A DNA stretch of 64,000 nt. Origin: an uncultured delta proteobacterium (lineage in GTDB: Bacteria > Desulfobacterota > Binatia > UBA9968). The stretch covers positions 352,001 to 416,000 of the forward strand of contig CAWFJP010000014.1 of the NCBI GenBank assembly GCA_963816145.1, given 5' to 3'. Both the position numbers and the translations under genes were made by a program. Shown here in pieces: positions 3,656 to 62,406 of the stretch (positions are counted from its first letter, which is position 1; each line of letters begins with the position of its first letter). The notes under the pieces are model-generated. The model ran no database searches, was not told the origin of the DNA, and saw nothing but the letters and a program-made list of their open reading frames with translations.

Positions 3656-4714
3656 TCACCGCTCGACTATCTGCAACCCGTGGCCGTCGGGGTCGCGTGC
3701 CAGAAAGCCCTTTGCGAAGCTGAGAGTATTCTCCGGCAAATTCGCCAGGCTCGGCGAAACTACTCGCCGCTTCGCTTGTCGCAGTTTTTGTGCGGCGTTT
3801 GCCGCGTTGTCAGTCGTCAGAGTCGTTTGCCAGTGCCACAAATCGTTTGCTCTGGTGTCGCTCGGCGCAGGCCGGCCGTCGCGCGGCGCCAGGTATTCCA
3901 ACAACTCGATGCCAGGCCCAGCGGCGGCCCTGAGGCCGCTGATATGCAAACGCGCGCCAGCGACATTGTTCAAATGCTCTTGTTCAGTGCCGTAGTTAAA
4001 GCTGTCGCCGGCGAGTTTCATACCAAGTAGGTCGCGATAATATTTCAAACTGCTCGGTGTGTTCGACACGACGATGGCGCTGTGGTCGATGCCGAGAAAG
4101 AGCTTGTCGTTATTCCTTTGCCAGCGCGGATCGCCCTTGCCTGGCGGAAAGTAGATGATCTCCAAATTGTGCCCGTCGGGATCTTTGAAATAAAAAGCTC
4201 GAATACCGGCGGCGGCCTTGTTGGTGACCGGAATCGTTTGCGGCGCGGTGGAGACGTGGCGCACTTTGTGGTTGCGCAGCTGCTGATAGGCCCGGTCCAT
4301 ATCGCTGACCACGATGGCGATATGCTGAAACCCATGATCGTGGCTGCGCCATTCCAGCGGGATCGGCCGGCCCTCCGGGGCGAGATACTGCGTCAGTTCG
4401 ATCATTTCTTCGCCAAGCTTAAGGCGCACCACGCGCATGCGCAGCCCGAACAATCCCTGCAATTTCTCATACTCGCTGCCGTGAACTTCAACGTCCGTGA
4501 TCTTTTCAAAGCGTAATACTTTCGAGAAATACTCAACCGATCGATCCACATCGGCGACGGTCATGCCGATCGTTTCTAGGGAGCGGATCAGCTGCGCGGA
4601 CCCCGCTGAAGTAACAAGTAAAAAGGAAAAAATGAAAATCGCCGTCGTCAACGCGATATGAATATTATAGCGAATCTGTTCCGACCTTTTCAATTTTCCA
4701 TTCTCCATTATCAA
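3656..4714 (-). CDS. VOC/glyoxalase family two-domain protein, probably exported
   Basis: FQHIAIVVSDMD, YFKDPDGHNLE, IDHSAIVVS, RDPDGHGLQ motifs; hydrophobic N-terminus. Confidence 0.85.
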   Translation of the reverse strand: MIMENGKLKRSEQIRYNIHIALTTAIFIFSFLLVTSAGSAQLIRSLETIGMTVADVDRSVEYFSKVLRFEKITDVEVHGSEYEKLQGLFGLRMRVVRLKLGEEMIELTQYLAPEGRPIPLEWRSHDHGFQHIAIVVSDMDRAYQQLRNHKVRHVSTAPQTIPVTNKAAAGIRAFYFKDPDGHNLEIIYFPPGKGDPRWQRNNDKLFLGIDHSAIVVSNTPSSLKYYRDLLGMKLAGDSFNYGTEQEHLNNVAGARLHISGLRAAAGPGIELLEYLAPRDGRPAPSDTRANDLWHWQTTLTTDNAANAAQKLRQAKRRVVSPSLANLPENTLSFAKGFLARDPDGHGLQIVER

Positions 4715-29624: not shown

Positions 29625-30647
29625 ATGAAACGCATCGTTATTTGTTTCGATGGGACTTGGAACAAGCCGGCGGATGAGTCGCTGCCGGCCGATCGGCAGG
29701 TGGAAACCAATGTGCGGCGATTTTACGAGTCGGTGCGGCCGCAGTCCGCGGATGGCGTGAAGCAAGTTAAATGGTACGACGAAGGCGTCGGCACTAAATG
29801 GTACGATCAGGTAATCGGCGGCGGTATTGGCTCCGGATTGGAGATGAATATCGTTCAGGGCTACGAGTTCTTGGCCAAGGAGTACGAGGAAGGCGACGAG
29901 ATTTATGTACTCGGTTTTAGCCGCGGCGCGTACACGGCGCGCAGTTTGGTCGGGATGGTGCGTAACTGCGGTCTCATCCAGGCCAAGCATCTTGGGCTAC
30001 GTACCGTGATGGCCTACGGAATTTATCGCACGCGGGGTGATAAAGCCGATTCCGTCACGGCGAAGCTGTTCCGGTCATCGTTTAGCCGCGAAGTGAAGAT
30101 CAAATTCATCGGTGTTTGGGATACCGTCGGCGCGCTCGGCGTACCGCTCGACATTCTCAAAGATGTGAACATGAAGTTTTACGAGTTCCACGACACCAAT
30201 CTCAGCGGCATCGTTGAAAATGCTTATCACGCGATGGCGGTCGACGAGCATCGACAAGACTACGATGTCTGCCGCTGGAATCCGGTGGAAAAGCCGCAGC
30301 AGAATATTGAGCAACGCTGGTTCATCGGCGCGCATTGCGATGTCGGTGGCGGCTACCCGGACCGGCGCTTGTCCGACATAGCGTTACGCTGGATTCAGGA
30401 CAAAGCGAGCGAGTTGGGTTTGGCGCTCGATGCCGTCAATATCGACGCGAAGATTTATCTCGGTGAATACACCGACTCCTACGCCGAGTTTCTTAAGGGC
30501 CTCTACGCCAAACGCATTGCCCGCCACTACCGTCCCATCGATATCGCTAAGTTTGGCAACGAAGTCGTCGATCCGTCGGTGCAACAGCGCCGCAAAGATG
30601 ATCGTGACTACGAGCCGCAAAACGATGGGATGCCGAAGCTCGGGTAA
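29625..30647 (+). CDS. DUF2235 alpha/beta hydrolase (Tle1-like)
   Basis: CFDGTWN, GFSRGAYTAR, GVWDTVGALG, GAHCDVGGG. Confidence 0.92.
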   Translation: MKRIVICFDGTWNKPADESLPADRQVETNVRRFYESVRPQSADGVKQVKWYDEGVGTKWYDQVIGGGIGSGLEMNIVQGYEFLAKEYEEGDEIYVLGFSRGAYTARSLVGMVRNCGLIQAKHLGLRTVMAYGIYRTRGDKADSVTAKLFRSSFSREVKIKFIGVWDTVGALGVPLDILKDVNMKFYEFHDTNLSGIVENAYHAMAVDEHRQDYDVCRWNPVEKPQQNIEQRWFIGAHCDVGGGYPDRRLSDIALRWIQDKASELGLALDAVNIDAKIYLGEYTDSYAEFLKGLYAKRIARHYRPIDIAKFGNEVVDPSVQQRRKDDRDYEPQNDGMPKLG

Positions 30648-33260: not shown

Positions 33261-33346
33261 AATGGATAATGGATAATTGAAAATTGATAATGGGAGAATT
33301 CGGAATTCCGGAAATTATCCATTGTCCATTTTCAATTATCCATTGA
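33261..33346. repeat. Inverted array of 7-bp (ATGGATA/ATTGATA-like) repeats; related arrays at 57049-57158 and 62333-62360
   Basis: AATGGATAATGGATAATTG...CAATTATCCATT. Confidence 0.7.
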
Positions 33347-47977: not shown

Positions 47978-48767
47978 TTAGCTGTGGAAGGGCGGTTTGC
48001 CGCAGAAGATGCAGCGCTTGGGATTATCATGATGCAACTTGGCGCAGGCGACGCGTGAAACGCCTTGCTTTCGGACATAGACTTCGGCAGCGGCGAGCAT
48101 GCCGATCAGCGGTGCTGTGAAATAAACCCACAGGCTCGTCCAAGAGTTCCCGACTAACGCCGAGGCGAAGCTGCGCGCCGGATTCATGCTCATGCCCGAG
48201 ATCGGCGCTTCGAGCGTAATGTAAGTCGCTACCAATATGCCGGCGCACACACCGGTGAATTTATGCAGCTTGGCGTGACTCGACACATGCAAAATGACCG
48301 TCATGAGAATGAAGCTGATAATAACTTCGGCGCTGAACGCTGCGAGAGCGCCCCACGCACCAGGAATGGTCACGACATAATTGACCGACGCATGCGCCGC
48401 CCTGGGATGAAGCAACTGTGCTGCGGCGATGCGCACCGATGGTGCCGCCGAGAAATTGCCCGGCGACGTAAAAGACCGCGTCCCACCTGGCGACCTTGCC
48501 GAGCCTAAAAAAAGTTAAGGTCGTCGCCGGATTGATGTGCGCGCCGGATTGTTGGCCCCAGGGGGAATATATGATGGCGATCGCCGTGCCGCCCATCGCC
48601 AGGCCCATCAAGAAACGGCGCAGTGTGGCATTAGCGATAGCCTGGTGGACGGCGGAGGATGGGTGTTCGAGCAGGGTGGCGAAGCTGAACGCCGAGATCA
48701 TGAACAGACCCAGGCAAATCGCTTCGATCAAGTATTCCGGCCAGTGGTGTTTGAGAGCATCCGCCAT
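47978..48767 (-). CDS. Aquaporin (MIP family), frameshift near 48435
   Basis: SGAHINPA and SMNPARS; Cys/His-rich C-terminal tail. Confidence 0.9.
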
Positions 48768-53169: not shown

Positions 53170-56100
53170 ATGGCGGGAGAAAAACTGGCGGATGTGGACT
53201 TGGGAGGCACCCAGAGCGGCTGGCCCGAATCGGCGCATGTCGCGTACTTTTGGAACACCGCAGAAGAATTCTCTGACGGCGTCACGTTTCTTGAAGTCGG
53301 CCTGCGTGGCGCAGATCACGGCGTAATCTTCGGCCACGACGATGCTAACCGTGAGGTTTGCCGGATCCTCGAAAGTCGCGGTTTGGATCTCACCCAGCTC
53401 GCTGCCGATGGTCGGCTAACGATTTTGCGCGGCCACCCCGATGTCGACCAGATGCTCGATGAGATCGGTCAAGCCTTCGAGCGCGCACTTGCGGGCGGTG
53501 CCAGCCTGGTTCGGCTGTTGGGCAATATCGGCTGGAGCCACGCTGATTGGCCCGATGAACAGGCTTTGCTCAGGTTCGAAGCACGAGTCACCGACGCAGC
53601 GAAACAGTTTCCCTGCGTGGTGGTCTGCATGTATGACGTCGCGGGTCTGCCGGGGACCATCGTCCATCATGGCGGGCTCGGCACCCATCCGCATGTACTT
53701 CGTAACGGTCATCCGCAGAACAACCCGCAATATCTTCCGCTGGATATTTTCTTGCGCCGAATTGAAACTCTGGCTGGCGCCATCGGCGAGCGCCGGCGCC
53801 ACGACGAGACGCTGCACCATATTACCGAAGGCACGGTGCAGTTCATCGGCGACGAATTTTTTCGCCAGTTGGCGCGCCATTTGGCTGACGCACTGCATGT
53901 CCGTTATTGTTTCGTCGCCGAATGCACCGACGACTCGCAAACGCGGCTGCGCGCGCTGGCGTTCTGGGACGGTCAAGGGTTCGCGCAAAACGTCGAGTAT
54001 CCGATACGCGGCACTCCCTGCGAAAAAGTCATCGAGGGCAACATCTGTTCCTATCCGGATCGGATTCAACAACTCTTTCCGGAGGACCAAGATCTGGTCA
54101 CCCTCGGCGCCGAAAGCTACGCCGGCGTGCCGTTGCCGAACTCACAGGGAAAGGTGCTTGGCCACTTGGTGGTGATGGACAACCGGCCGCGCCACTTCGA
54201 CGAAAATGAGCTGCGCGTATTGCGTATCTTCGCCAACCGCGCCGGCATCGAACTCGAAAGGTTGCGCGCCGATCGCAAGGTCAGCCAGCTCAATGGCGAA
54301 CTGACCGCGCTGCTCGAAATCAACCGCGCCATCGGCCGCCAACTGGAGCGCGAGCATTTATTTGGCGCGCTGTCCGATTGCTTGAAAAGCGTCGTGCCGA
54401 CCGAACGATTCGGCATCGAAATTCCGCTCGACGGTAACCGCCTCGAAGGGCATATTCTTTCCAATGGCGCGTCGATCGGCGCGCCCACCGAGCCGACGAT
54501 TTTGCCGGCTGCCGGAACCGCGTGTGATTGGGTGCTGCAAACGCATCAATGGTTTATCGCCGGCAGTCGCGACGAGTTTCGCGACCGCTTTCCGGTCACC
54601 TACAGGGTCATGAGCGAGCAAGGCATGGAATCGCTGTGCGCCGTCGCCTTGGTCAGCGGCGGGCGCAACCGTGGCGCGCTGTTTTTCATGGCGTCTGTCA
54701 AGGATGCCTATCGCGATTTGCGCCGTAACTTCATCGAACAGGTCGCCAATCAAATCGCCCTCGCCATCGAAAACGTCAACTCCTACGAAGAAATCGCGGC
54801 ACTCAATCAAAAGATCGCGGCGACCGCAGCGCGCCGGCAAACTCTGCTCGAAGTCAACAATGCGATTGTCACCAAGCTGACCAGGGAGGAGCTTTTGGCG
54901 GTGGCCTGCGACGCTCTTAGCAAGGTGATCTGGTTCGACCGGCTGGCGCTTTCCCTCTACGATCCCGCCATCGAATCTCTGCGGATTGTCGCTTGCGCCG
55001 GTCCTTATCAGCGGCAGGACTATTCGCCGATCGGACGTCAGCTGAAGCTTGACGATAGTCCGGCGGGGCAAGCGTTTCAGAGCCAGCGGCCGATACTGTG
55101 CGGCGATCTTGAAACCGAGCGCCGGACCGCCTCCGAGGAGCGCGCTTACGGCCACGGCTTCCGCTCCATCTGTGTCCTGCCCTTGGTTGTTCATGGCAGA
55201 TCTCTCGGGGCGATCACCGTCGGCAGCCTGACCCGTTGCCAATATTCCGCAGCCGACGCCGAGTTTCTCATGGAGGTGGCTAATCAGATCGCCATCGCGG
55301 TTGAGAATATGCAGCTGCACGAAGAGACCGCCGCTTTGAAAGCACGCTTCGAAGCCGAGACGGTTTACTTGCAGGAAGAGATCAAGACCGAACACAATTT
55401 CGAAGAGATCATCGGCCAGAGCGAAAAGGTGCGCGAGCTGCTGCGCAAGGTCGAACAGGTCGCGCCCACCGACGCTTCGGTTTTGATCTGCGGCGAGACC
55501 GGCACCGGCAAGGAGTTGTTGGCGCGCGCGGTGCACGATCGCAGCAAGCGCAAAGATCGCGCCTTGGTGAAGGTGAACTGCGGCTCGATTCCGTCCGGCT
55601 TGGTCGAAAGCGAGCTGTTCGGCCACGAAAAGGGCGCCTTTACCGGTGCCATGCAGCAACGCATCGGCCGCTTCGAGCTCGCCCACGGCGGCACGATCTT
55701 TCTCGACGAAGTCACCGAGCTGCCGCTCGATACTCAAGTGAAACTCTTGAGAGTGTTGCAAGAAGGGGAGTTCGAGCGGGTCGGCAGCAGCAAGACGATG
55801 AAAGTCGACGTGCGCGTGATCGCCGCGACGAACCGCGATCTGAACCAGGTAGTCAGCAAGGGCAGTTTCCGCGCCGACTTGTATTATCGTCTTAATGTTT
55901 TTCCGCTCGAATCGCCGGCGCTGCGCGATCGCAAGGACGACCTTCCCTTGTTGGTGAGTTTTTTCTTGAGCCGTTTCGGCAAGAAACTCGGCAAAGAGGT
56001 GCGCGGCGTGGCGCAAAAATCGATGGAGAGTCTAGTTCGCTACAACTGGCCAGGCAACATTCGCGAACTGCAAAACGTCGTCGAACGCGCGGTGGTGCTG

Positions 56101-56337
56101 GCCCGCGGCCCGGTGGTGCAAGTGGACGAATCGATGCTGCGCAGCGACTCGGCCGCGGCGGCGGAAGTTTCGGCCATCGATACGTTGGAAAATAACGAGC
56201 GCAATCATATCCTGCACGCTCTGGCTGAAACTAATTGGGTGATCCATGGCAAAAAAGGCGCGGCAGAGCTGCTTGGCATCAATCCCAGCACGTTGCGCTC
56301 GCGCATGGATAAACTTGGCATCAAGCGGCAGGCGTGA
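53170..56337 (+). CDS. Sigma54-dependent activator (FhlA-like): MEDS + 3 GAF + AAA+ + Fis HTH
   Basis: N-terminal HVAYFW...CMYDV...THP (MEDS-like); GETGTGKE, GAFTGA, RADLYYRL, WPGNIRELQN, GAAELLGINPSTL. Confidence 0.92.
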   Translation: MAGEKLADVDLGGTQSGWPESAHVAYFWNTAEEFSDGVTFLEVGLRGADHGVIFGHDDANREVCRILESRGLDLTQLAADGRLTILRGHPDVDQMLDEIGQAFERALAGGASLVRLLGNIGWSHADWPDEQALLRFEARVTDAAKQFPCVVVCMYDVAGLPGTIVHHGGLGTHPHVLRNGHPQNNPQYLPLDIFLRRIETLAGAIGERRRHDETLHHITEGTVQFIGDEFFRQLARHLADALHVRYCFVAECTDDSQTRLRALAFWDGQGFAQNVEYPIRGTPCEKVIEGNICSYPDRIQQLFPEDQDLVTLGAESYAGVPLPNSQGKVLGHLVVMDNRPRHFDENELRVLRIFANRAGIELERLRADRKVSQLNGELTALLEINRAIGRQLEREHLFGALSDCLKSVVPTERFGIEIPLDGNRLEGHILSNGASIGAPTEPTILPAAGTACDWVLQTHQWFIAGSRDEFRDRFPVTYRVMSEQGMESLCAVALVSGGRNRGALFFMASVKDAYRDLRRNFIEQVANQIALAIENVNSYEEIAALNQKIAATAARRQTLLEVNNAIVTKLTREELLAVACDALSKVIWFDRLALSLYDPAIESLRIVACAGPYQRQDYSPIGRQLKLDDSPAGQAFQSQRPILCGDLETERRTASEERAYGHGFRSICVLPLVVHGRSLGAITVGSLTRCQYSAADAEFLMEVANQIAIAVENMQLHEETAALKARFEAETVYLQEEIKTEHNFEEIIGQSEKVRELLRKVEQVAPTDASVLICGETGTGKELLARAVHDRSKRKDRALVKVNCGSIPSGLVESELFGHEKGAFTGAMQQRIGRFELAHGGTIFLDEVTELPLDTQVKLLRVLQEGEFERVGSSKTMKVDVRVIAATNRDLNQVVSKGSFRADLYYRLNVFPLESPALRDRKDDLPLLVSFFLSRFGKKLGKEVRGVAQKSMESLVRYNWPGNIRELQNVVERAVVLARGPVVQVDESMLRSDSAAAAEVSAIDTLENNERNHILHALAETNWVIHGKKGAAELLGINPSTLRSRMDKLGIKRQA

Positions 56338-56367: not shown

Positions 56368-57042
56368 TCAAGTTCCAACGCTTCGGATCCTGGCACTTCG
56401 TGCCAACTCGTCTATGGAACGTTTTGAACGACTGGAACGATTGGAAGCTTTGGAACTTCCTAACGATAGTGATGCCCAGCTTGGCGACCAGACCGATAGC
56501 CCAACAGAAGCAGCCAGCACCGCGCCGTACTGAACCGGGCGGCGGATATCGGCTTTGACCAACCAATAGAAGTGCACCACGCCTAACATTGCGATCCCAT
56601 AGACGAGATAGTGGAGTTGTTGCCAGCGTTTGCCGAGGCGCCGGATCATCGCCGCGTTCGAAGTCAGCGCCAGCGGGATCATCAACACCAGCGCGCTGAA
56701 GCCGACCGTGATATAGGGCCGCTTCAAGATATCTTTGCCGATGGCGGAGAAATCGAAAAACAGATCGAGCACCATGTAGGTGGCGAAGTGGAGGGCGGCA
56801 TAGAAAAAAGCGAACAAGCCGAGCATGCGGCGTAATTTTATCAGCTCGTTCCAGCCAGTGAGCTTCCGTAGCGGCGTGACCGCCAAGCTTGAGAGTAAAA
56901 TTAGCAATGCATAGGAGCCGGTGAAGCGGGTGATGTACTCGATCGGGTTGGCGGTCAGATTGTCGCTGTAATAATTAAAGACAAGCTGGCCTAATGGAAT
57001 AAGACAGATCAGAAAGGCGGCGGATTTGACCAGGCGAAACAT
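56368..57042 (-). CDS. msrQ: Methionine sulfoxide reductase heme subunit MsrQ (3' frameshift, end uncertain)
   Basis: LAVTPLR, RRMLGLFAFFY..LHF, KRPYITVG, WQQLHYLVY. Confidence 0.9.
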   Translation of the reverse strand: MFRLVKSAAFLICLIPLGQLVFNYYSDNLTANPIEYITRFTGSYALLILLSSLAVTPLRKLTGWNELIKLRRMLGLFAFFYAALHFATYMVLDLFFDFSAIGKDILKRPYITVGFSALVLMIPLALTSNAAMIRRLGKRWQQLHYLVYGIAMLGVVHFYWLVKADIRRPVQYGAVLAASVGLSVWSPSWASLSLGSSKASNRSSRSKRSIDELARSARIRSVGT

Positions 57043-57161
57043 CGGAGTAATGGATAATTGATAATGGAGAATGGAAAATTAGAAGAGTTGCTGCCTCAGT
57101 CGAGTACGGTTTCGATCCCTTCCGGACATTATCAATTCTCAATTATCCATTCTCCATTGTT

Positions 57162-58124
57162 TCAGTAATATTTTTTCAGGTCCATGCCGCTGTACAAGCT
57201 TGCGACTTGGTCGCCATAGCCGTTGAACATCAGGGTTTTGCGCCGGCGGAATTCGCCGATGCGCCGTTCAGTGGCCTGGGTCCAGCGCGGGTGATCGACT
57301 TCGGGATTGACATTGGAGTAGAAGCCGTACTCTTGCGGCTGCATCATGTTCCACGACGCGGCTGGCTGCTTTTCGACGAAGCGGACTTTGACGATCGACT
57401 TGATGCTCTTGAAGCCATATTTCCAGGGTACGACGATGCGGATCGGCGCGCCGTTCTGGGCCGGCAGGACCTCACCGTAAAGACCGACCGAGAGAATCGT
57501 CAGAGGATGCATCGCCTCGTCCATGCGCAATCCTTCGACATAGGGCCATTCCAAGGTCGCAAGTTTTTGACCAGGCAGCCGTTTGGGATCGTTGAGGGTG
57601 ACGAACTGGATGAACTTGGCGTTGCCGGTGGGCTCGGCCTGCTTGATCAGCGAACTGAGCGGAAAGCCTATCCACGGAATCACCATCGACCAGGCTTCGA
57701 CGCAACGCAGGCGGTAGATTCGTTCTTCCAGCGGCGCTAATTTAGTCAGTTCTTCGATGTCATAGGTTTTGACTTTCTTGACTTCGCCCTCGACTGCGAC
57801 TGTCCATGGACGAGTGGTGAGATACTTGGCGTTGGCTGCCGGATCTTCTTTGTCCGGGCCAAGTTCATAGAAATTATTGTAGTTGGTGATTTCTTTCAGC
57901 GTGTTCAGTTTTTCGTTGGTGCTGAACGAACTCTTCTTGACGTTGGCAAGTTTCTCGGCGCCGTACGCCGAGGCGAAATCCTTGCCGGGCTCGATGCCGC
58001 TGAGAATCGCGCCAGCGCCTAGCGCCATGGCGGACGCCGAAAGCATGAACTGCCGGCGGTTCAGGTAGTGCTCTTTGGGGGTGATCTCCGCCGACTTGAT
58101 GTCGGCAGGCTTTTTAATAAGCAT
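57162..58124 (-). CDS. msrP: Methionine sulfoxide reductase molybdo-subunit MsrP
   Basis: Tat [42 protein letters not shown]. Confidence 0.96.
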
Positions 58125-58155
58125 GGATTCTTCTCCTCGGTATTCGCGTGCGCCG

Positions 58156-58677
58156 CTATTCAGCGATCAGTTGTTTGATCGTCGCTTCGGTTACGCTGTA
58201 GGCGCCTTCGCCAATATGGCTGTAACGAATTACGCCCTTTTTGTCGACCAGCACGATGGTTGGCCAAGCCCAGACGCCGTAGCGGTGCCAAATGTCAAAG
58301 TTGTTGTCTTGCACCACTGGGAACTTGATACCGAGACGCGCGGTCGCTTCCTTCACTTTGGCCAAGGGTTTTTCCCAGGGAAATTCCGGCGAATGGACGC
58401 CGACGATGGTCAACCCGGCTTGTTCAAACTTATCATGCCAACCCCGCAACTGCGAGATGATGTTTCTACAGTTGATTCAGCCATAGGTCCAAAACTCGAC
58501 CAAAATCACCCGGCCTTTGAGGCCTGTGATGTTGAGAGGTTTGCTGTTGATCCAGTTTTCGCCGGCGAGCTCGGGCGCAGGTGTACCGTTGGTGAGCGCC
58601 GTGCCGGCGCGCGGCCAAGCCGCCCAAAGCGCCAAGGCGAGAACGAGAGCCGTTGAAAAAGCTGCCAGACGTACCAT
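58156..58677 (-). CDS. Exported thioredoxin-like redoxin (DipZ/TlpA type) with UxxC, probable selenoprotein
   Basis: WINSKPL...[11 protein letters not shown](58477-58479)-INCRN...GVHSPEF...AWPT...HIGEGAY in one frame. Confidence 0.85.
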
Positions 58678-58743
58678 GATTTTGCCAGTTCTCTTTGCCC
58701 CGCCTGGCCGGATGAATCGCCGTGCCAAGCTATCGTTGTACGA

Positions 58744-61466: not shown

Positions 61467-62333
61467 GTGCTGCCAATCTTATTCGGACTGTTGACCTCGG
61501 TTTGCTTTGCGGTGGCGAGTCTTTTGGCGCAGCGCGGCTACCATCTAGGGCCGGCGCCCTGGGGCGCGTGGATCACCATCGTTGCCAACGCCGCGTTCCT
61601 CTTGGCCGGCCATCTCCTTCTCGAAGGCGAGACCCGTCTGTTCGTCGTCGACAATCTCATATTTATCGCTGTTGGTTTGTTCGTTCCTGGCGTCACGCGG
61701 GTTTTGAGTTTTCGTGGCATCCGTACCATGGGCAGCTCGATAACGTCGACCATCGTCAATACCACGCCGATGTTTTCGACGGTATTGGCGATTCTCATCC
61801 TCGGCGAGCGCCCGAGCGCGTTGGTACTTGGCGGCGTGCTTCTCACCGTCGGCGGGCTGATTACGGTGTCCTGGGGCGGCGAGAAAACCTCGTATTCAAA
61901 GGTCGAGCTGGTATTTCCGTTTCTCTGCGCGTTGTTGTTCTCGATGAAAGATATTTCGGTGCGCTGGGGGTTGGGCGCCGGCGGGGCGCAGCCGATTCTC
62001 GCCGCCGCGATTGCGGCGCTGACTTCGACCGTCGAGATTTTTTTGATTACCCGCTACCTCCAGGGTCAGAAGTTCGCATTACCGCCTTTGCCGGTGCTGC
62101 GCTGGTTTGTCTGGTCGGGGATTTTTACCGGCGGCTCATTCTTGTTCATGTACGTCGCATTCAGCATGGAGCGCGTCTCGATTGTTGCGCCGCTAGTGAA
62201 CAGCTATACGGTCTTCGTCGCCGTCTTGACGCCGTTCATGGCGCGCCAGATCGAAAGCTTAACGCCGCGCAAATTGGCTGGTGCCGCATTGGTAGTTGCG
62301 GGGATTTTTGCCGTGTCGCTCGGCAGGAATTGA
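61467..62333 (+). CDS. DMT/EamA family transporter
   Basis: About 10 TM, AILILGERP, VSIVAPL. Confidence 0.88.
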   Translation: MLPILFGLLTSVCFAVASLLAQRGYHLGPAPWGAWITIVANAAFLLAGHLLLEGETRLFVVDNLIFIAVGLFVPGVTRVLSFRGIRTMGSSITSTIVNTTPMFSTVLAILILGERPSALVLGGVLLTVGGLITVSWGGEKTSYSKVELVFPFLCALLFSMKDISVRWGLGAGGAQPILAAAIAALTSTVEIFLITRYLQGQKFALPPLPVLRWFVWSGIFTGGSFLFMYVAFSMERVSIVAPLVNSYTVFVAVLTPFMARQIESLTPRKLAGAALVVAGIFAVSLGRN

Positions 62334-62406
62334 GAATGGATAATTGATAATGGAGAATTGTCGATCGAGTTTTGTGATCCGCTAACCTCGATCATCCATT
62401 TTCGAT

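What the first reader, a model, noticed from the sequence alone, without database searches (positions are those of the whole stretch)
56368..58677. Exported UxxC thioredoxin (probable selenoprotein) heading msrPQ
Seen: ORF fragments 58477..58728 and 58156..58449 are one reading frame interrupted by TGA exactly at the first Cys of FWTxxCxNC. It has a signal/anchor peptide and lies 31 nt upstream of msrP. A stem (CAACTG...CAGTTG) follows the TGA, but its loop lacks the G typical of bacterial SECIS. Known: UxxC thioredoxin-fold selenoproteins exist; MsrP normally takes electrons from MsrQ/quinol, not from thioredoxin. Inference: an extracytoplasmic Sec-redoxin co-expressed with MsrPQ for combined thiol and Met repair, possibly with an atypical SECIS or UGA-Cys recoding.
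Basis: partly seen in the sequence, partly recalled or inferred. Interest (0 to 1): 0.75.

Follow-up and report, generated by a model that had tools for sequence, protein, structure and literature searches.

The report
Exported selenocysteine redoxin gene before msrPQ
This is a real, wrongly split gene for an exported thioredoxin-like protein that most likely carries selenocysteine at its active site, read with an ordinary bacterial recoding hairpin, and it sits with genes that repair oxidised proteins of the cell envelope.

Summary
One minus-strand frame (58677..58156) has a single in-frame TGA (58479..58477) at the first position of a thioredoxin-type xxC motif (FWTYG-U-INC). msrP starts 31 nt downstream, then msrQ.

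The TGA is not a strain oddity. In 80 related loci from different species, this codon is TGA in 53, TGC or TGT in 27, and never TAA or TAG.

A canonical bacterial SECIS is present. It is a 7-bp hairpin (58458..58441) with loop AGUU, 25 nt after UGA. All 54 of 54 TGA forms keep a hairpin there, in three different stem sequences. Only 3 of 27 Cys forms do. So an atypical SECIS or UGA-Cys recoding is not needed.

The protein is a stand-alone relative of the thioredoxin-like domain of M. tuberculosis DipZ. Relatives are fused to CcdA or to MsrB. Sec forms usually lie beside msrPQ, a two-component system, or both.

UxxC "Prx-like" selenoproteins have been known since 2005, so this is a new member of a known kind. 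Sec machinery could not be checked in 64 kb, and the function is inferred.

The parts
58156..58677 (-). Gene for an exported DipZ-type thioredoxin-like redoxin, 173 residues with U67; annotated by ORF finders as two fragments
   Evidence: frame; Pfam AhpC-TSA/Redoxin/Thioredoxin_8; Mtb DipZ 2hyx, E 2.1e-37 over residues 32-171
58597..58677 (-). N-terminal signal peptide or signal anchor (about residues 1-27, [27 protein letters not shown])
   Evidence: By inspection. Hydrophobic N-termini occur in all 13 full-length homologues. The DipZ alignment starts at residue 32. No signal-peptide predictor was run.
58477..58479 (-). In-frame UGA, proposed selenocysteine codon (U67), first position of the UxxC motif
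   Evidence: same column is TGA 53, TGC 21, TGT 6 of 80 loci
58468..58470 (-). Resolving cysteine C70 (TGT) of U-I-N-C
   Evidence: the C of xNC is kept in all 80 loci
58441..58458 (-). Proposed bacterial SECIS hairpin: 7-bp stem (two U.G pairs), apical loop AGUU at 58451..58448, invariant G at 58450, 25 nt after UGA
   Evidence: searches (54/54 TGA forms, 3/27 Cys forms; three stem versions; G30 and U32 invariant; positional profile), criteria
58125..58155 (-). 31-nt spacer between the redoxin stop and the msrP start, with GAGGAGAA ahead of the ATG; no terminator-like site on this strand
57162..58124 (-). msrP, molybdopterin methionine-sulfoxide reductase catalytic subunit, with RRQF twin-arginine motif; ends in TGA; a single Cys in the protein
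   Evidence: NF003767, 484 bits
57049..57151 (.). AT-rich inverted repeat in the msrP-msrQ spacer; a copy of a repeat found at other intergenic sites of the window
56368..57042 (-). msrQ, haem-binding membrane subunit; ends in TGA; about 40 residues of tail beyond the profile match
   Evidence: NF003831, 195 bits, residues 4-183

Best explanation
The two ORF fragments are one gene for an exported, stand-alone DipZ-type thioredoxin-fold redoxin. The first residue of its active site, U67 in U-I-N-C, is selenocysteine.

Shown or directly supported:
- The UGA is conserved across many species and alternates only with Cys codons.
- It is followed at a fixed distance by a small hairpin that fits the consensus bacterial SECIS. 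That hairpin is kept through compensatory changes.
- UGA still works as a stop for msrP and msrQ in the same cluster, so the recoding is local.

Inferred mechanism:
- SelB with Sec-tRNA(Sec) binds the hairpin at 58458..58441 while the ribosome is at UGA67.
- The protein is exported by its N-terminal signal sequence.
- In the periplasm the selenolate attacks an oxidised substrate: a disulfide, a sulfenic acid, possibly a peroxide, or an oxidised thiol-dependent Msr.
- This forms a selenenylsulfide with C70. A CcdA/DsbD-type membrane electron carrier encoded elsewhere then re-reduces the protein.
- It is probably co-transcribed with msrPQ as part of an envelope module that repairs oxidised proteins. 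In Rokubacteria/Methylomirabilota the cluster also holds a two-component system.
For: 1. Codon. TGA in 53, TGC/TGT in 27, TAA/TAG in 0 of 80 loci from different species. By my count, 45 of the 120 listed 'near'-length homologues are 97-101-aa C-terminal fragments at 77-98% identity. These are genes cut at the same place in other assemblies, one of them 98% identical. Full-length Cys forms reach at most 77% identity.

2. SECIS.
- 54 of 54 TGA forms have a hairpin of -7.3 kcal/mol or better around invariant G30, against 3 of 27 Cys forms.
- There are three stem versions: CCCGC-AGUU-GCGGG (47), GCCUUG-GGU-CAAGGC (4) and UUCCCUC-GUU-GAGGGAA (3).
- At any other position, at most 16 of 54 have such a hairpin.
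- Synonymous codons are fixed in Sec forms. Leu TTG is 48/48 against 8/23 in Cys forms, Pro CCG 46/53 against 10/27, and Arg CGG 47/50 against 5/10.
- The window hairpin meets the published constraints: loop 3-9 nt, stem 4-16 bp, G in the first two loop positions, spacing 16-37 nt, MFE <= -7.5 (passages of PMC13188914).

3. Local recoding. msrP and msrQ end in TGA.

4. Fold. Pfam, and Mtb DipZ thioredoxin-like domain at E 2.1e-37.

5. Function leads.
- Of 120 listed longer relatives, 32 carry the CcdA/DsbD membrane domain PF02683 and 12 carry MsrB PF01641 (my counts).
- Six Acidobacteriota Cys loci are Trx-MsrB fusions, two of them with CcdA nearby.
- msrP lies on the same strand within 4.5 kb in 28 of 53 Sec loci.
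- An orthologous HK and RR follow directly in 24 of 53, and one of the two in 6 more.

6. Lineage. The review says a Methylomirabilota MAG was predicted to hold 63 selenoprotein genes (passage).
Against: - No selA, selB, selD or tRNA-Sec was seen in the 64-kb window: ARAGORN found 0 tRNAs, Rfam found 0 matches, and Pfam on 45 large ORFs found none. No tRNA-Sec was found in the 80 loci either. These pieces are small, so this neither supports nor refutes Sec use by the organism.
- The window taken alone is weak evidence. Folding z-scores are -1.33 and -0.29. In 780 of 5000 synonymous resamplings of the window peptide, a hairpin at least as stable appears at the same place.
- A single-register count on the alignment gives little formal covariation: 1 pair with double changes and a score of 0.111 against 0.089. 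The two minor clades use a 3-nt loop, which shifts the register.
- 14 of 53 Sec loci with enough sequence have no msrP nearby.
- The window holds no CcdA, MsrA or MsrB.
- MsrP has a single Cys, so it is no obvious thiol-disulfide substrate.
- One metagenome homologue (P0007) shows W at the position.
Confidence: 0.8

Rival explanations
1. The redoxin works mainly as a selenol peroxidase or oxidant scavenger (peroxide, HOCl, chloramines) in the periplasm, not as a protein disulfide or sulfenate reductase. It would be the detoxifying first gene ahead of the repair enzymes MsrPQ.
For: - The best Pfam match is AhpC-TSA. The known selenoprotein class with this motif is called 'Prx-like'.
- Some longer relatives also carry the glutathione-peroxidase family PF00255 in their precomputed domain lists.
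- In E. coli the gene ahead of msrPQ (hiuH) is proposed as a periplasmic detoxifier. I saw only the listing and the start of the abstract of PMC13252058.
Against: - The motif is thioredoxin-type UxxC, not TxxU.
- The closest solved relatives are reductases of the DipZ/ResA/TlpA type.
- Fusions to MsrB and CcdA point to an electron-relay role.
Confidence: 0.2
2. UGA67 is decoded without the Sec machinery, as Cys, Trp or by near-cognate read-through, or through a SECIS of an unusual class.
For: - No Sec machinery was seen in the window.
- Homologue P0007 has W at the position.
- The review notes that some bSECIS elements do not fit the consensus.
Against: - A consensus-type hairpin is present and conserved in 54 of 54 TGA forms.
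- TGA is a normal stop for msrP and msrQ.
- The codon alternates only with Cys codons.
- The Methylomirabilota lineage is reported as rich in selenoproteins.
Confidence: 0.05
3. The gene is broken: the TGA is a true stop (pseudogene or assembly error) and only fragments are made.
For: Table-11 gene callers predict fragments here and in many relatives.
Against: - The same TGA is in 53 species, with both halves conserved down to about 50% identity and no other stops.
- The stop is never TAA or TAG.
- A conserved hairpin lies downstream.
Confidence: 0.03
4. It is a housekeeping maturation reductase (cytochrome c or copper-centre assembly, like ResA, CcmG or TlpA), and its place beside msrPQ has no functional meaning.
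For: - There are weak NCBIfam matches to ResA, TlpA, DsbE and StoA.
- 14 of 53 Sec loci have no msrP nearby.
Against: - All those NCBIfam scores are far below their cutoffs, for example ResA at 59 against 170.
- The linkage to Met-sulfoxide reductases of two unrelated kinds recurs: msrPQ beside the gene, and MsrB fused to it.
- No cytochrome c maturation genes were seen among the neighbours scanned in 27 loci.
Confidence: 0.1

Closest known systems
Thioredoxin-like domain of Mycobacterium tuberculosis DipZ (PDB 2hyx, 5cyy)
   Same: Closest solved relative (E 2.1e-37 over residues 32-171). It has the same FW-x-Y-x-C-I-N-C motif, the HSPEF..EK block and the WP loop.
   Different: - DipZ has Cys where this protein has Sec.
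- DipZ proteins carry a CcdA-type membrane domain and a further C-terminal domain (PF17991).
- This protein is a stand-alone 173-residue domain behind a signal sequence.
'Prx-like (thiol:disulfide oxidoreductase)' selenoprotein family of Zhang, Gladyshev and colleagues
   Same: Distant homology to peroxiredoxin (PF00578) with a thioredoxin-like UxxC site. It is listed as 'predicted with high confidence' (passages of PMC13188914, PMC1088965 and PMC1794560).
   Different: - I could not compare with that family's reference sequence, so identity of family is untested.
- The papers I searched do not mention DipZ-type members or msrPQ linkage.
Extracytoplasmic Trx-to-Msr relays (Neisseria PilB N-terminal domain; CcdA-Etrx-MsrAB2 of Streptococcus pneumoniae; names recalled)
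   Same: - Weak sequence matches to the PilB thioredoxin domain (2h30, 2fy6, 2jzr) and to 'thioredoxin family proteins' 2yp6, 4hqz and 4hqs.
- Relatives of this protein are fused to MsrB behind a membrane anchor, and CcdA lies nearby.
   Different: Here the neighbour is the molybdenum enzyme MsrP with MsrQ, which is not known to use thioredoxin. No MsrA, MsrB or CcdA is in the window.
E. coli hiuH-msrP-msrQ operon with the HprSR (YedVW) two-component system
   Same: A small periplasmic protein gene heads msrPQ. In Rokubacteria-type loci a histidine kinase and an OmpR-type regulator sit in the cluster. The kinase sensor has conserved Met and no conserved Cys.
   Different: - The first gene is a Sec-redoxin, not a transthyretin-like HiuH.
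- The kinase and regulator match only generic families, HprR included, all below cutoff.
- The window's own cluster has no such two-component system.
ResA / TlpA / CcmG(DsbE) / StoA
   Same: Same fold class, exported, CxxC-type reductases.
   Different: All NCBIfam scores are far below the family cutoffs, and this protein has Sec instead of Cys.

Membership tests
Bacterial SECIS/SelB-dependent selenoprotein gene | In-frame UGA aligned with a redox Cys of homologues, ORF conserved on both sides | tested here: met
   TGA 53, TGC 21, TGT 6 of 80 loci at the column. tblastn runs through the stop over residues 1-173 in several loci. Pfam domains span the TGA.
Bacterial SECIS/SelB-dependent selenoprotein gene | bSECIS consensus: apical loop 3-9 nt, upper stem 4-16 bp, G in the first two loop positions, 16-37 nt from UGA, MFE <= -7.5 kcal/mol (criteria read in PMC13188914) | tested here: met
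   Window: 7-bp stem, loop AGUU, spacing 25 nt, -7.7 kcal/mol. Among the 54 TGA forms, 53 are <= -7.5 and one (L057) is -7.3. All loops have G in position 1 or 2.
Bacterial SECIS/SelB-dependent selenoprotein gene | Structure conserved beyond what the protein sequence demands (compensatory change, loss in Cys forms) | tested here: met
   Three stem versions at one place; 54/54 against 3/27; codon fixation; positional profile. Caveats: the single-register count is weak, and the window alone is not significant.
Bacterial SECIS/SelB-dependent selenoprotein gene | selA, selB, selC (tRNA-Sec) and selD in the same genome | not testable with these tools
   Only 64 kb is held, and none was seen there.
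Bacterial SECIS/SelB-dependent selenoprotein gene | Selenium actually incorporated | not testable with these tools
   Needs 75Se labelling or mass spectrometry.
DipZ-type thioredoxin-like domain (TlpA/ResA-like superfamily) | Thioredoxin-like/Redoxin domain above the curated cutoff with a CxxC-type site and the cis-Pro (WP) loop | tested here: met
   AhpC-TSA 58.4 (cutoff 26), Redoxin 46.8 (26.6), Thioredoxin_8 45.4 (27). UxxC is present, and WP aligns with DipZ.
DipZ proper (CcdA-thioredoxin fusion) | N-terminal CcdA/DsbD membrane domain and C-terminal PF17991 domain in the same protein | tested here: not met
   The protein has 173 residues and one domain behind a signal sequence. Fused forms exist among relatives.
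ResA, TlpA, DsbE/CcmG, StoA (NCBIfam) | Score above the curated family cutoff | tested here: not met
   ResA 59.2 against 170, StoA 39.6 against 210, TlpA 32 against 230, DsbE 30.5 against 123. The selenoprotein models WAxxUGC_long (28.5 against 300) and SelL_rel_redox (24.5 against 120) are also not met.
Prx-like thiol:disulfide oxidoreductase selenoproteins | PF00578 homology with a UxxC site | tested here: met
   The family description was read.
Prx-like thiol:disulfide oxidoreductase selenoproteins | Direct similarity to the family's reference proteins | not tested
   The reference accession named in the review could not be fetched with these tools.
MsrPQ | MsrP and MsrQ equivalog models above cutoff, adjacent genes | tested here: met
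   MsrP 484.1 (cutoff 207), MsrQ 195.3 (cutoff 130).
Trx-to-MsrA/B extracytoplasmic relay | Thiol-dependent MsrA/B fused to or beside the redoxin, with CcdA/DsbD as donor | tested here: not met
   There is no MsrB or CcdA match in the window (Pfam). The feature is met in relatives: 6 fused loci, and 12 of 120 listed longer proteins.

The most novel reading that the evidence does not exclude
The Sec-redoxin, a Met-sensing type histidine kinase with its regulator, and MsrPQ form one conserved selenium-dependent envelope oxidant-defence module in Rokubacteria/Methylomirabilota and Binatia-like bacteria. In this reading the redoxin is not a general reductase. It is a dedicated partner of the module: either the fast selenol trap for the oxidant that the kinase senses, or a redox partner that keeps MsrP substrates or an exported Msr reduced. 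That would link selenium supply to periplasmic methionine repair.
Probability: 0.15. Interest if true: 0.6.

Novelty: new member of a known kind. Interest (0 to 1): 0.4.

Why it matters
- **Annotation.** This gene is split or truncated in many public assemblies. By my count, 45 of the 120 best hits are such fragments, labelled peroxiredoxin, AhpC or thioredoxin. No NCBIfam selenoprotein model covers it. A model for the FWT[YFH]G-U-[IYT]NC family would repair those annotations.
- **Biology.** It adds an exported selenoprotein to soil and groundwater lineages (Rokubacteria/Methylomirabilota, Binatia-like, some Chloroflexota). It also shows a recurrent tie between one thioredoxin subfamily and two unrelated methionine-sulfoxide reductases: MsrB by fusion and MsrPQ by neighbourhood.
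- **A testable question.** Does periplasmic Met repair by MsrPQ have a thiol/selenol-based companion?

Tried and rejected
It pairs in 95.9% of cells but has 0 double changes, and all 500 shuffles match it. It excludes the conserved hairpin. Rejected as the functional element, though it is the window's own MFE.
- **Single-register covariation count and RNAalifold on the 54 sequences**. These gave weak numbers because the two minor clades have a 3-nt loop. I replaced them with a per-sequence hairpin analysis.
- **Other selenoprotein candidates in the window.** I scanned all in-frame TGAs flanked by at least 60 codons. Of 53 sites, only 58479 has a redox-motif context.
- **Sec machinery.** Nothing turned up in ARAGORN on the window and 80 loci, in Rfam, or in Pfam on 45 ORFs. 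This is uninformative at this size.
- **Kinase and regulator as HprSR.** They match only generic families, all below cutoff.
- **Thiol relay from the redoxin to the kinase.** No Cys column is conserved in 29 kinase sensor domains, so this is unlikely.
- **Redoxin as reductant of MsrP itself.** MsrP has a single Cys. Considered unlikely.
- **Literature.** I found no paper linking a Sec-thioredoxin with MsrP/msrPQ or DipZ. One search (selenocysteine + Rokubacteria) gave 3 papers of no direct relevance by title. One search found only the review.
- **Not run.** I ran no complex prediction or structure prediction. The PDB sequence match was judged enough, and binding is not claimed.
Full report
**Observation**

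On the minus strand, 58677..58156 is one reading frame of 173 codons plus a stop. It has a single internal stop, TGA at 58479..58477. The TGA falls in VEFWTYG-U-INC, the first position of a thioredoxin-type CxxC motif.

Read through, the protein matches AhpC-TSA, Redoxin and Thioredoxin_8 above their cutoffs, across both sides of the TGA. The N-terminus has three residues including an Arg, then 18 hydrophobic residues, then PRAGTA. It looks like a signal peptide or anchor. This is by inspection only. The 13 full-length homologues aligned have the same kind of N-terminus.

msrP starts 31 nt after the stop. It is followed by a 119-nt spacer and then msrQ. Both match their NCBIfam equivalog models well above cutoff. 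No terminator-like site lies between the redoxin gene and msrP on that strand.

**Is the TGA real and conserved?**

A search of the protein collection found full-length Cys-containing homologues at 77% identity or less. By my count, 45 of the 120 listed hits are 97-101-residue proteins at 77-98% identity that cover only the part after the TGA. These are the same gene cut at the same place by gene callers in other assemblies. One of them, P0049, is 98% identical.

I then fetched 80 related loci from one-genome-per-species contigs and read the codon in the U67 column. It is TGA in 53, TGC in 21, TGT in 6, and TAA or TAG in none. The motif around it is FWT[YFH]G-*-[IYT]NC in most of them.

The TGA forms come from records titled Rokuibacteriota/Methylomirabilota, Binatia, 'delta proteobacterium', Chloroflexota and one Acidobacteriota. 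Identities go down to about 50%. The 80 loci are the best of 592 matches to a Sec-type query, so the fraction is not an unbiased frequency.

On a quick maximum-likelihood tree with the column masked, the Sec/Cys label needs 10 changes, and at least 7 are forced by well-supported branches. The window sits in a clade of 54 rows, 47 Sec and 7 Cys. The tree has few columns and is only a sketch.

**The recoding signal**

On the alignment of the 54 TGA forms it pairs in 95.9% of cells. But it has no compensatory change, and every column shuffle does as well. Its conservation follows from the conserved codons.

A different element stands out. It is a small hairpin centred on an invariant G at position 30, counting the U of UGA as 1. 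In the window it is AUCUCGC-AGUU-GCGGGGU (58458..58441). It has 7 pairs, two of them U.G, and a loop AGUU. It lies 25 nt after the UGA, with dG -7.7 kcal/mol.

The evidence for this hairpin:
- All 54 of 54 TGA forms have a hairpin of -7.3 kcal/mol or better there. Only 3 of 27 Cys forms do (L001, L007, L040), and all three are close relatives of Sec forms.
- The stem comes in three versions: CCCGC-AGUU-GCGGG in 47 sequences, GCCUUG-GGU-CAAGGC in four Methylomirabilis-type sequences, and UUCCCUC-GUU-GAGGGAA in three Chloroflexia sequences. The structure is kept while the sequence and the encoded peptide change.
- At other positions along the gene, at most 16 of 54 sequences have such a hairpin.
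- Synonymous codons inside the hairpin are fixed in Sec forms and free in Cys forms. Leu TTG is 48/48 against 8/23, Pro CCG 46/53 against 10/27, and Arg CGG 47/50 against 5/10.
- The hairpin meets the consensus bSECIS constraints as given in a 2026 review, of which I read passages (PMC13188914). These are a loop of 3-9 nt, a stem of 4-16 bp, G in one of the first two loop positions and often followed by G or U, 16-37 nt from UGA, and MFE <= -7.5.

The evidence against it, or that weakens it:
- Single-sequence folding of the window is not significant (z -1.33 and -0.29).
- In 780 of 5000 synonymous resamplings of the window peptide, an equally stable hairpin appears at that spot.
- A single-register pair count gives little formal covariation, because the two minor clades have a 3-nt loop that shifts the register.

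The case therefore rests on the comparison, not on the window alone.

msrP and msrQ both end in TGA. So UGA is an ordinary stop in this cluster, and the read-through must be local. An atypical SECIS or a UGA-Cys code is not needed.

**What could not be checked**

The window holds no tRNA, no Rfam match, and no SelA, SelB or SelD domain among 45 large ORFs. ARAGORN found no tRNA-Sec in the 80 loci. No other in-frame TGA in the window has a redox-motif context; 53 sites were examined.

In 64 kb this says nothing either way. Indirect support comes from two places. The review states that a Methylomirabilota MAG was predicted to hold 63 selenoprotein genes (passage; the primary paper was not in the library). 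And locus L009 has a second candidate just upstream of its redoxin (see 'In passing').

**What the protein is**

The closest solved structure by sequence is the thioredoxin-like domain of M. tuberculosis DipZ (2hyx, E 2.1e-37 over residues 32-171). It has the same FW-Y-CINC motif, HSPEF block and WP loop. Next come the thioredoxin-like domains of SOQ1 and NHLRC2. ResA, TlpA, CcmG and the PilB N-terminal domain follow far behind.

NCBIfam models for ResA, StoA, TlpA and DsbE, and the selenoprotein models WAxxUGC_long and SelL-related, all score far below their cutoffs. So it is a stand-alone DipZ-type domain and not a member of those named families.

Among the 120 listed longer relatives (my counts):
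- 32 carry the CcdA/DsbD membrane domain PF02683. Sources name these 'cytochrome c biogenesis protein CcdA/thiol-disulfide isomerase' or DipZ.
- 12 carry MsrB (PF01641) after the redoxin domain, behind a membrane anchor.

Six Acidobacteriota Cys-form loci in my set are such Trx-MsrB fusions. Two of them have a CcdA-like gene within about 4 kb. These fusions suggest where electrons come from (CcdA) and one place they go (a thiol-dependent Msr).

**Neighbourhood**

msrP at 45% identity or more to the window's lies on the same strand within 4.5 kb in 28 of 53 Sec loci:
- 10 directly adjacent, as in the window;
- 2 after a small gap;
- 14 after about 2 kb;
- 2 upstream.

Another 14 Sec loci have none, and 11 are too short to tell. 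Among Cys loci the figure is 7 of 27.

The 2-kb insert is a histidine kinase plus an OmpR-type regulator. Orthologues of both follow the redoxin gene directly in 24 of 53 Sec loci, and one of the two in 6 more. Among Cys loci it is 4 of 27. They match only generic families.

The kinase sensor domain has no conserved Cys. It has Met conserved at two positions, in 29/29 and 25/29 sequences. That argues against a thiol relay from the redoxin to the kinase. By recall, it resembles the Met-based sensing proposed for E. coli HprS, which controls hiuH-msrPQ.

The window's own clade (L001-L007) shares mutY - transglycosylase - small ORF - redoxin - msrP - msrQ, without the two-component system. The window has no MsrA, MsrB or CcdA. 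MsrP has a single Cys, so it is not an obvious disulfide substrate.

**Mechanism**

Shown:
- a conserved UGA/Cys column;
- a conserved consensus-type hairpin;
- local recoding;
- a thioredoxin fold of the DipZ type;
- recurrent linkage to msrPQ and to a two-component system;
- fusions of relatives to CcdA and MsrB.

Inferred:
- SelB-dependent Sec insertion at U67;
- export;
- attack of the selenolate on an oxidised periplasmic substrate, forming a selenenylsulfide with C70;
- recycling by a CcdA/DsbD carrier encoded elsewhere;
- co-expression with MsrPQ as an envelope module that repairs oxidised proteins.

The main functional rival is a peroxidase or oxidant-scavenger role.

**Comparison with what is known, and novelty**

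UxxC thioredoxin-fold selenoproteins are well known. They include a 'Prx-like' family with PF00578 homology and a UxxC site, reported since 2005 (passages of PMC1088965, PMC1794560 and PMC13188914). This gene fits that description, but I could not compare it with the family's reference sequence.

Searches for MsrP with thioredoxin-like and selenocysteine, for msrPQ operons with thiol-disulfide oxidoreductases, and for DipZ with selenoprotein found no paper describing this linkage. Subscription journals, and the groundwater MAG survey cited by the review, were not visible to me.

I rate it a new member of a known kind. The finding is solid and useful for annotation. The neighbourhood is moderately interesting. 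There is no new recoding mechanism.

**In passing**
- An AT-rich repeat occupies the msrP-msrQ spacer as an inverted pair. It recurs at three other sites in the window, with 10 matches against 0 expected.
- L009 has, just upstream of its Sec-redoxin, a pyridine-nucleotide-disulfide oxidoreductase whose N-terminal redox motif reads GTCLARG-U-IPKK through a TGA. By eye, a perfect GGUGCU-GGUU-AGCACC hairpin follows 17 nt later in the sequence shown. The MFE does not use it.
- Homologue P0007 has W at the Sec position. Its DNA could not be seen.

Noticed in passing
window 57049-57158; also 4690-4709, 33261-33330, 62328-62354: An AT-rich repeat with a roughly 7-nt period (AATGGAG/AATGGAT/AATTGAG units) forms a 25-nt inverted pair in the msrP-msrQ spacer. 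It recurs at three other sites: 10 matches with up to 3 mismatches against 0 expected. It looks like a REP-like intergenic element.
   Followed up: partly
L009:5623-5625 (gene about L009:5488-6834, + strand): Just upstream of the Sec-redoxin in this Binatia-titled MAG, a pyridine nucleotide-disulfide oxidoreductase reads GTCLARG-U-IPKK through an in-frame TGA, where such enzymes normally have CxxxxC. A perfect hairpin GGUGCU-GGUU-AGCACC follows 17 nt after the UGA. It is a second selenoprotein candidate, which would support Sec use in that lineage.
   Followed up: partly
loci L008-L051 (for example L014:10537-12731): An orthologous histidine kinase and OmpR-type regulator follow the redoxin gene directly in 24 of 53 Sec loci (one of the two in 6 more), often ahead of msrPQ. 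The kinase sensor domain has two conserved Met (29/29 and 25/29) and no conserved Cys.
   Followed up: partly
protein P0007 (metagenome homologue, 64% identical): It has Trp at the Sec position (FWTYG-W-INC). This is either a TGA-to-TGG change or a gene call under a code that reads TGA as Trp.
   Followed up: no
protein P0074 (94% identical over the C-terminal half): In another assembly the post-TGA fragment runs by a frame change into the start of MsrP ([21 protein letters not shown]...). This shows the same redoxin-msrP adjacency in an independent contig.
   Followed up: no
window 56368-56500: The msrQ ORF runs about 40 residues past the MsrQ profile (match ends at residue 183 of 224) into a Ser/Arg-rich tail. 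The DNA of that tail holds a 20-nt inverted repeat (56370-56389 with 56439-56458).
   Followed up: no
window 47978-48767: The ORF 47978..48436 (-) matches only the second half of the MIP/aquaporin profile (positions 102-222). An overlapping ORF 48261..48767 (-) lies in another frame. This may be a frameshifted or mis-assembled aquaporin gene.
   Followed up: no
window 53170-56337 (+): A large sigma-54 activator with a MEDS domain, three GAF domains, an AAA+ domain and an HTH domain converges on the end of msrQ. There is no evidence that it regulates the cluster.
   Followed up: no
window 29625-30647 (+): An ORF with a strong match to the T6SS Tle1-like phospholipase catalytic domain (E 1.4e-79). 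No other type VI secretion genes were noted among the ORFs scanned.
   Followed up: no
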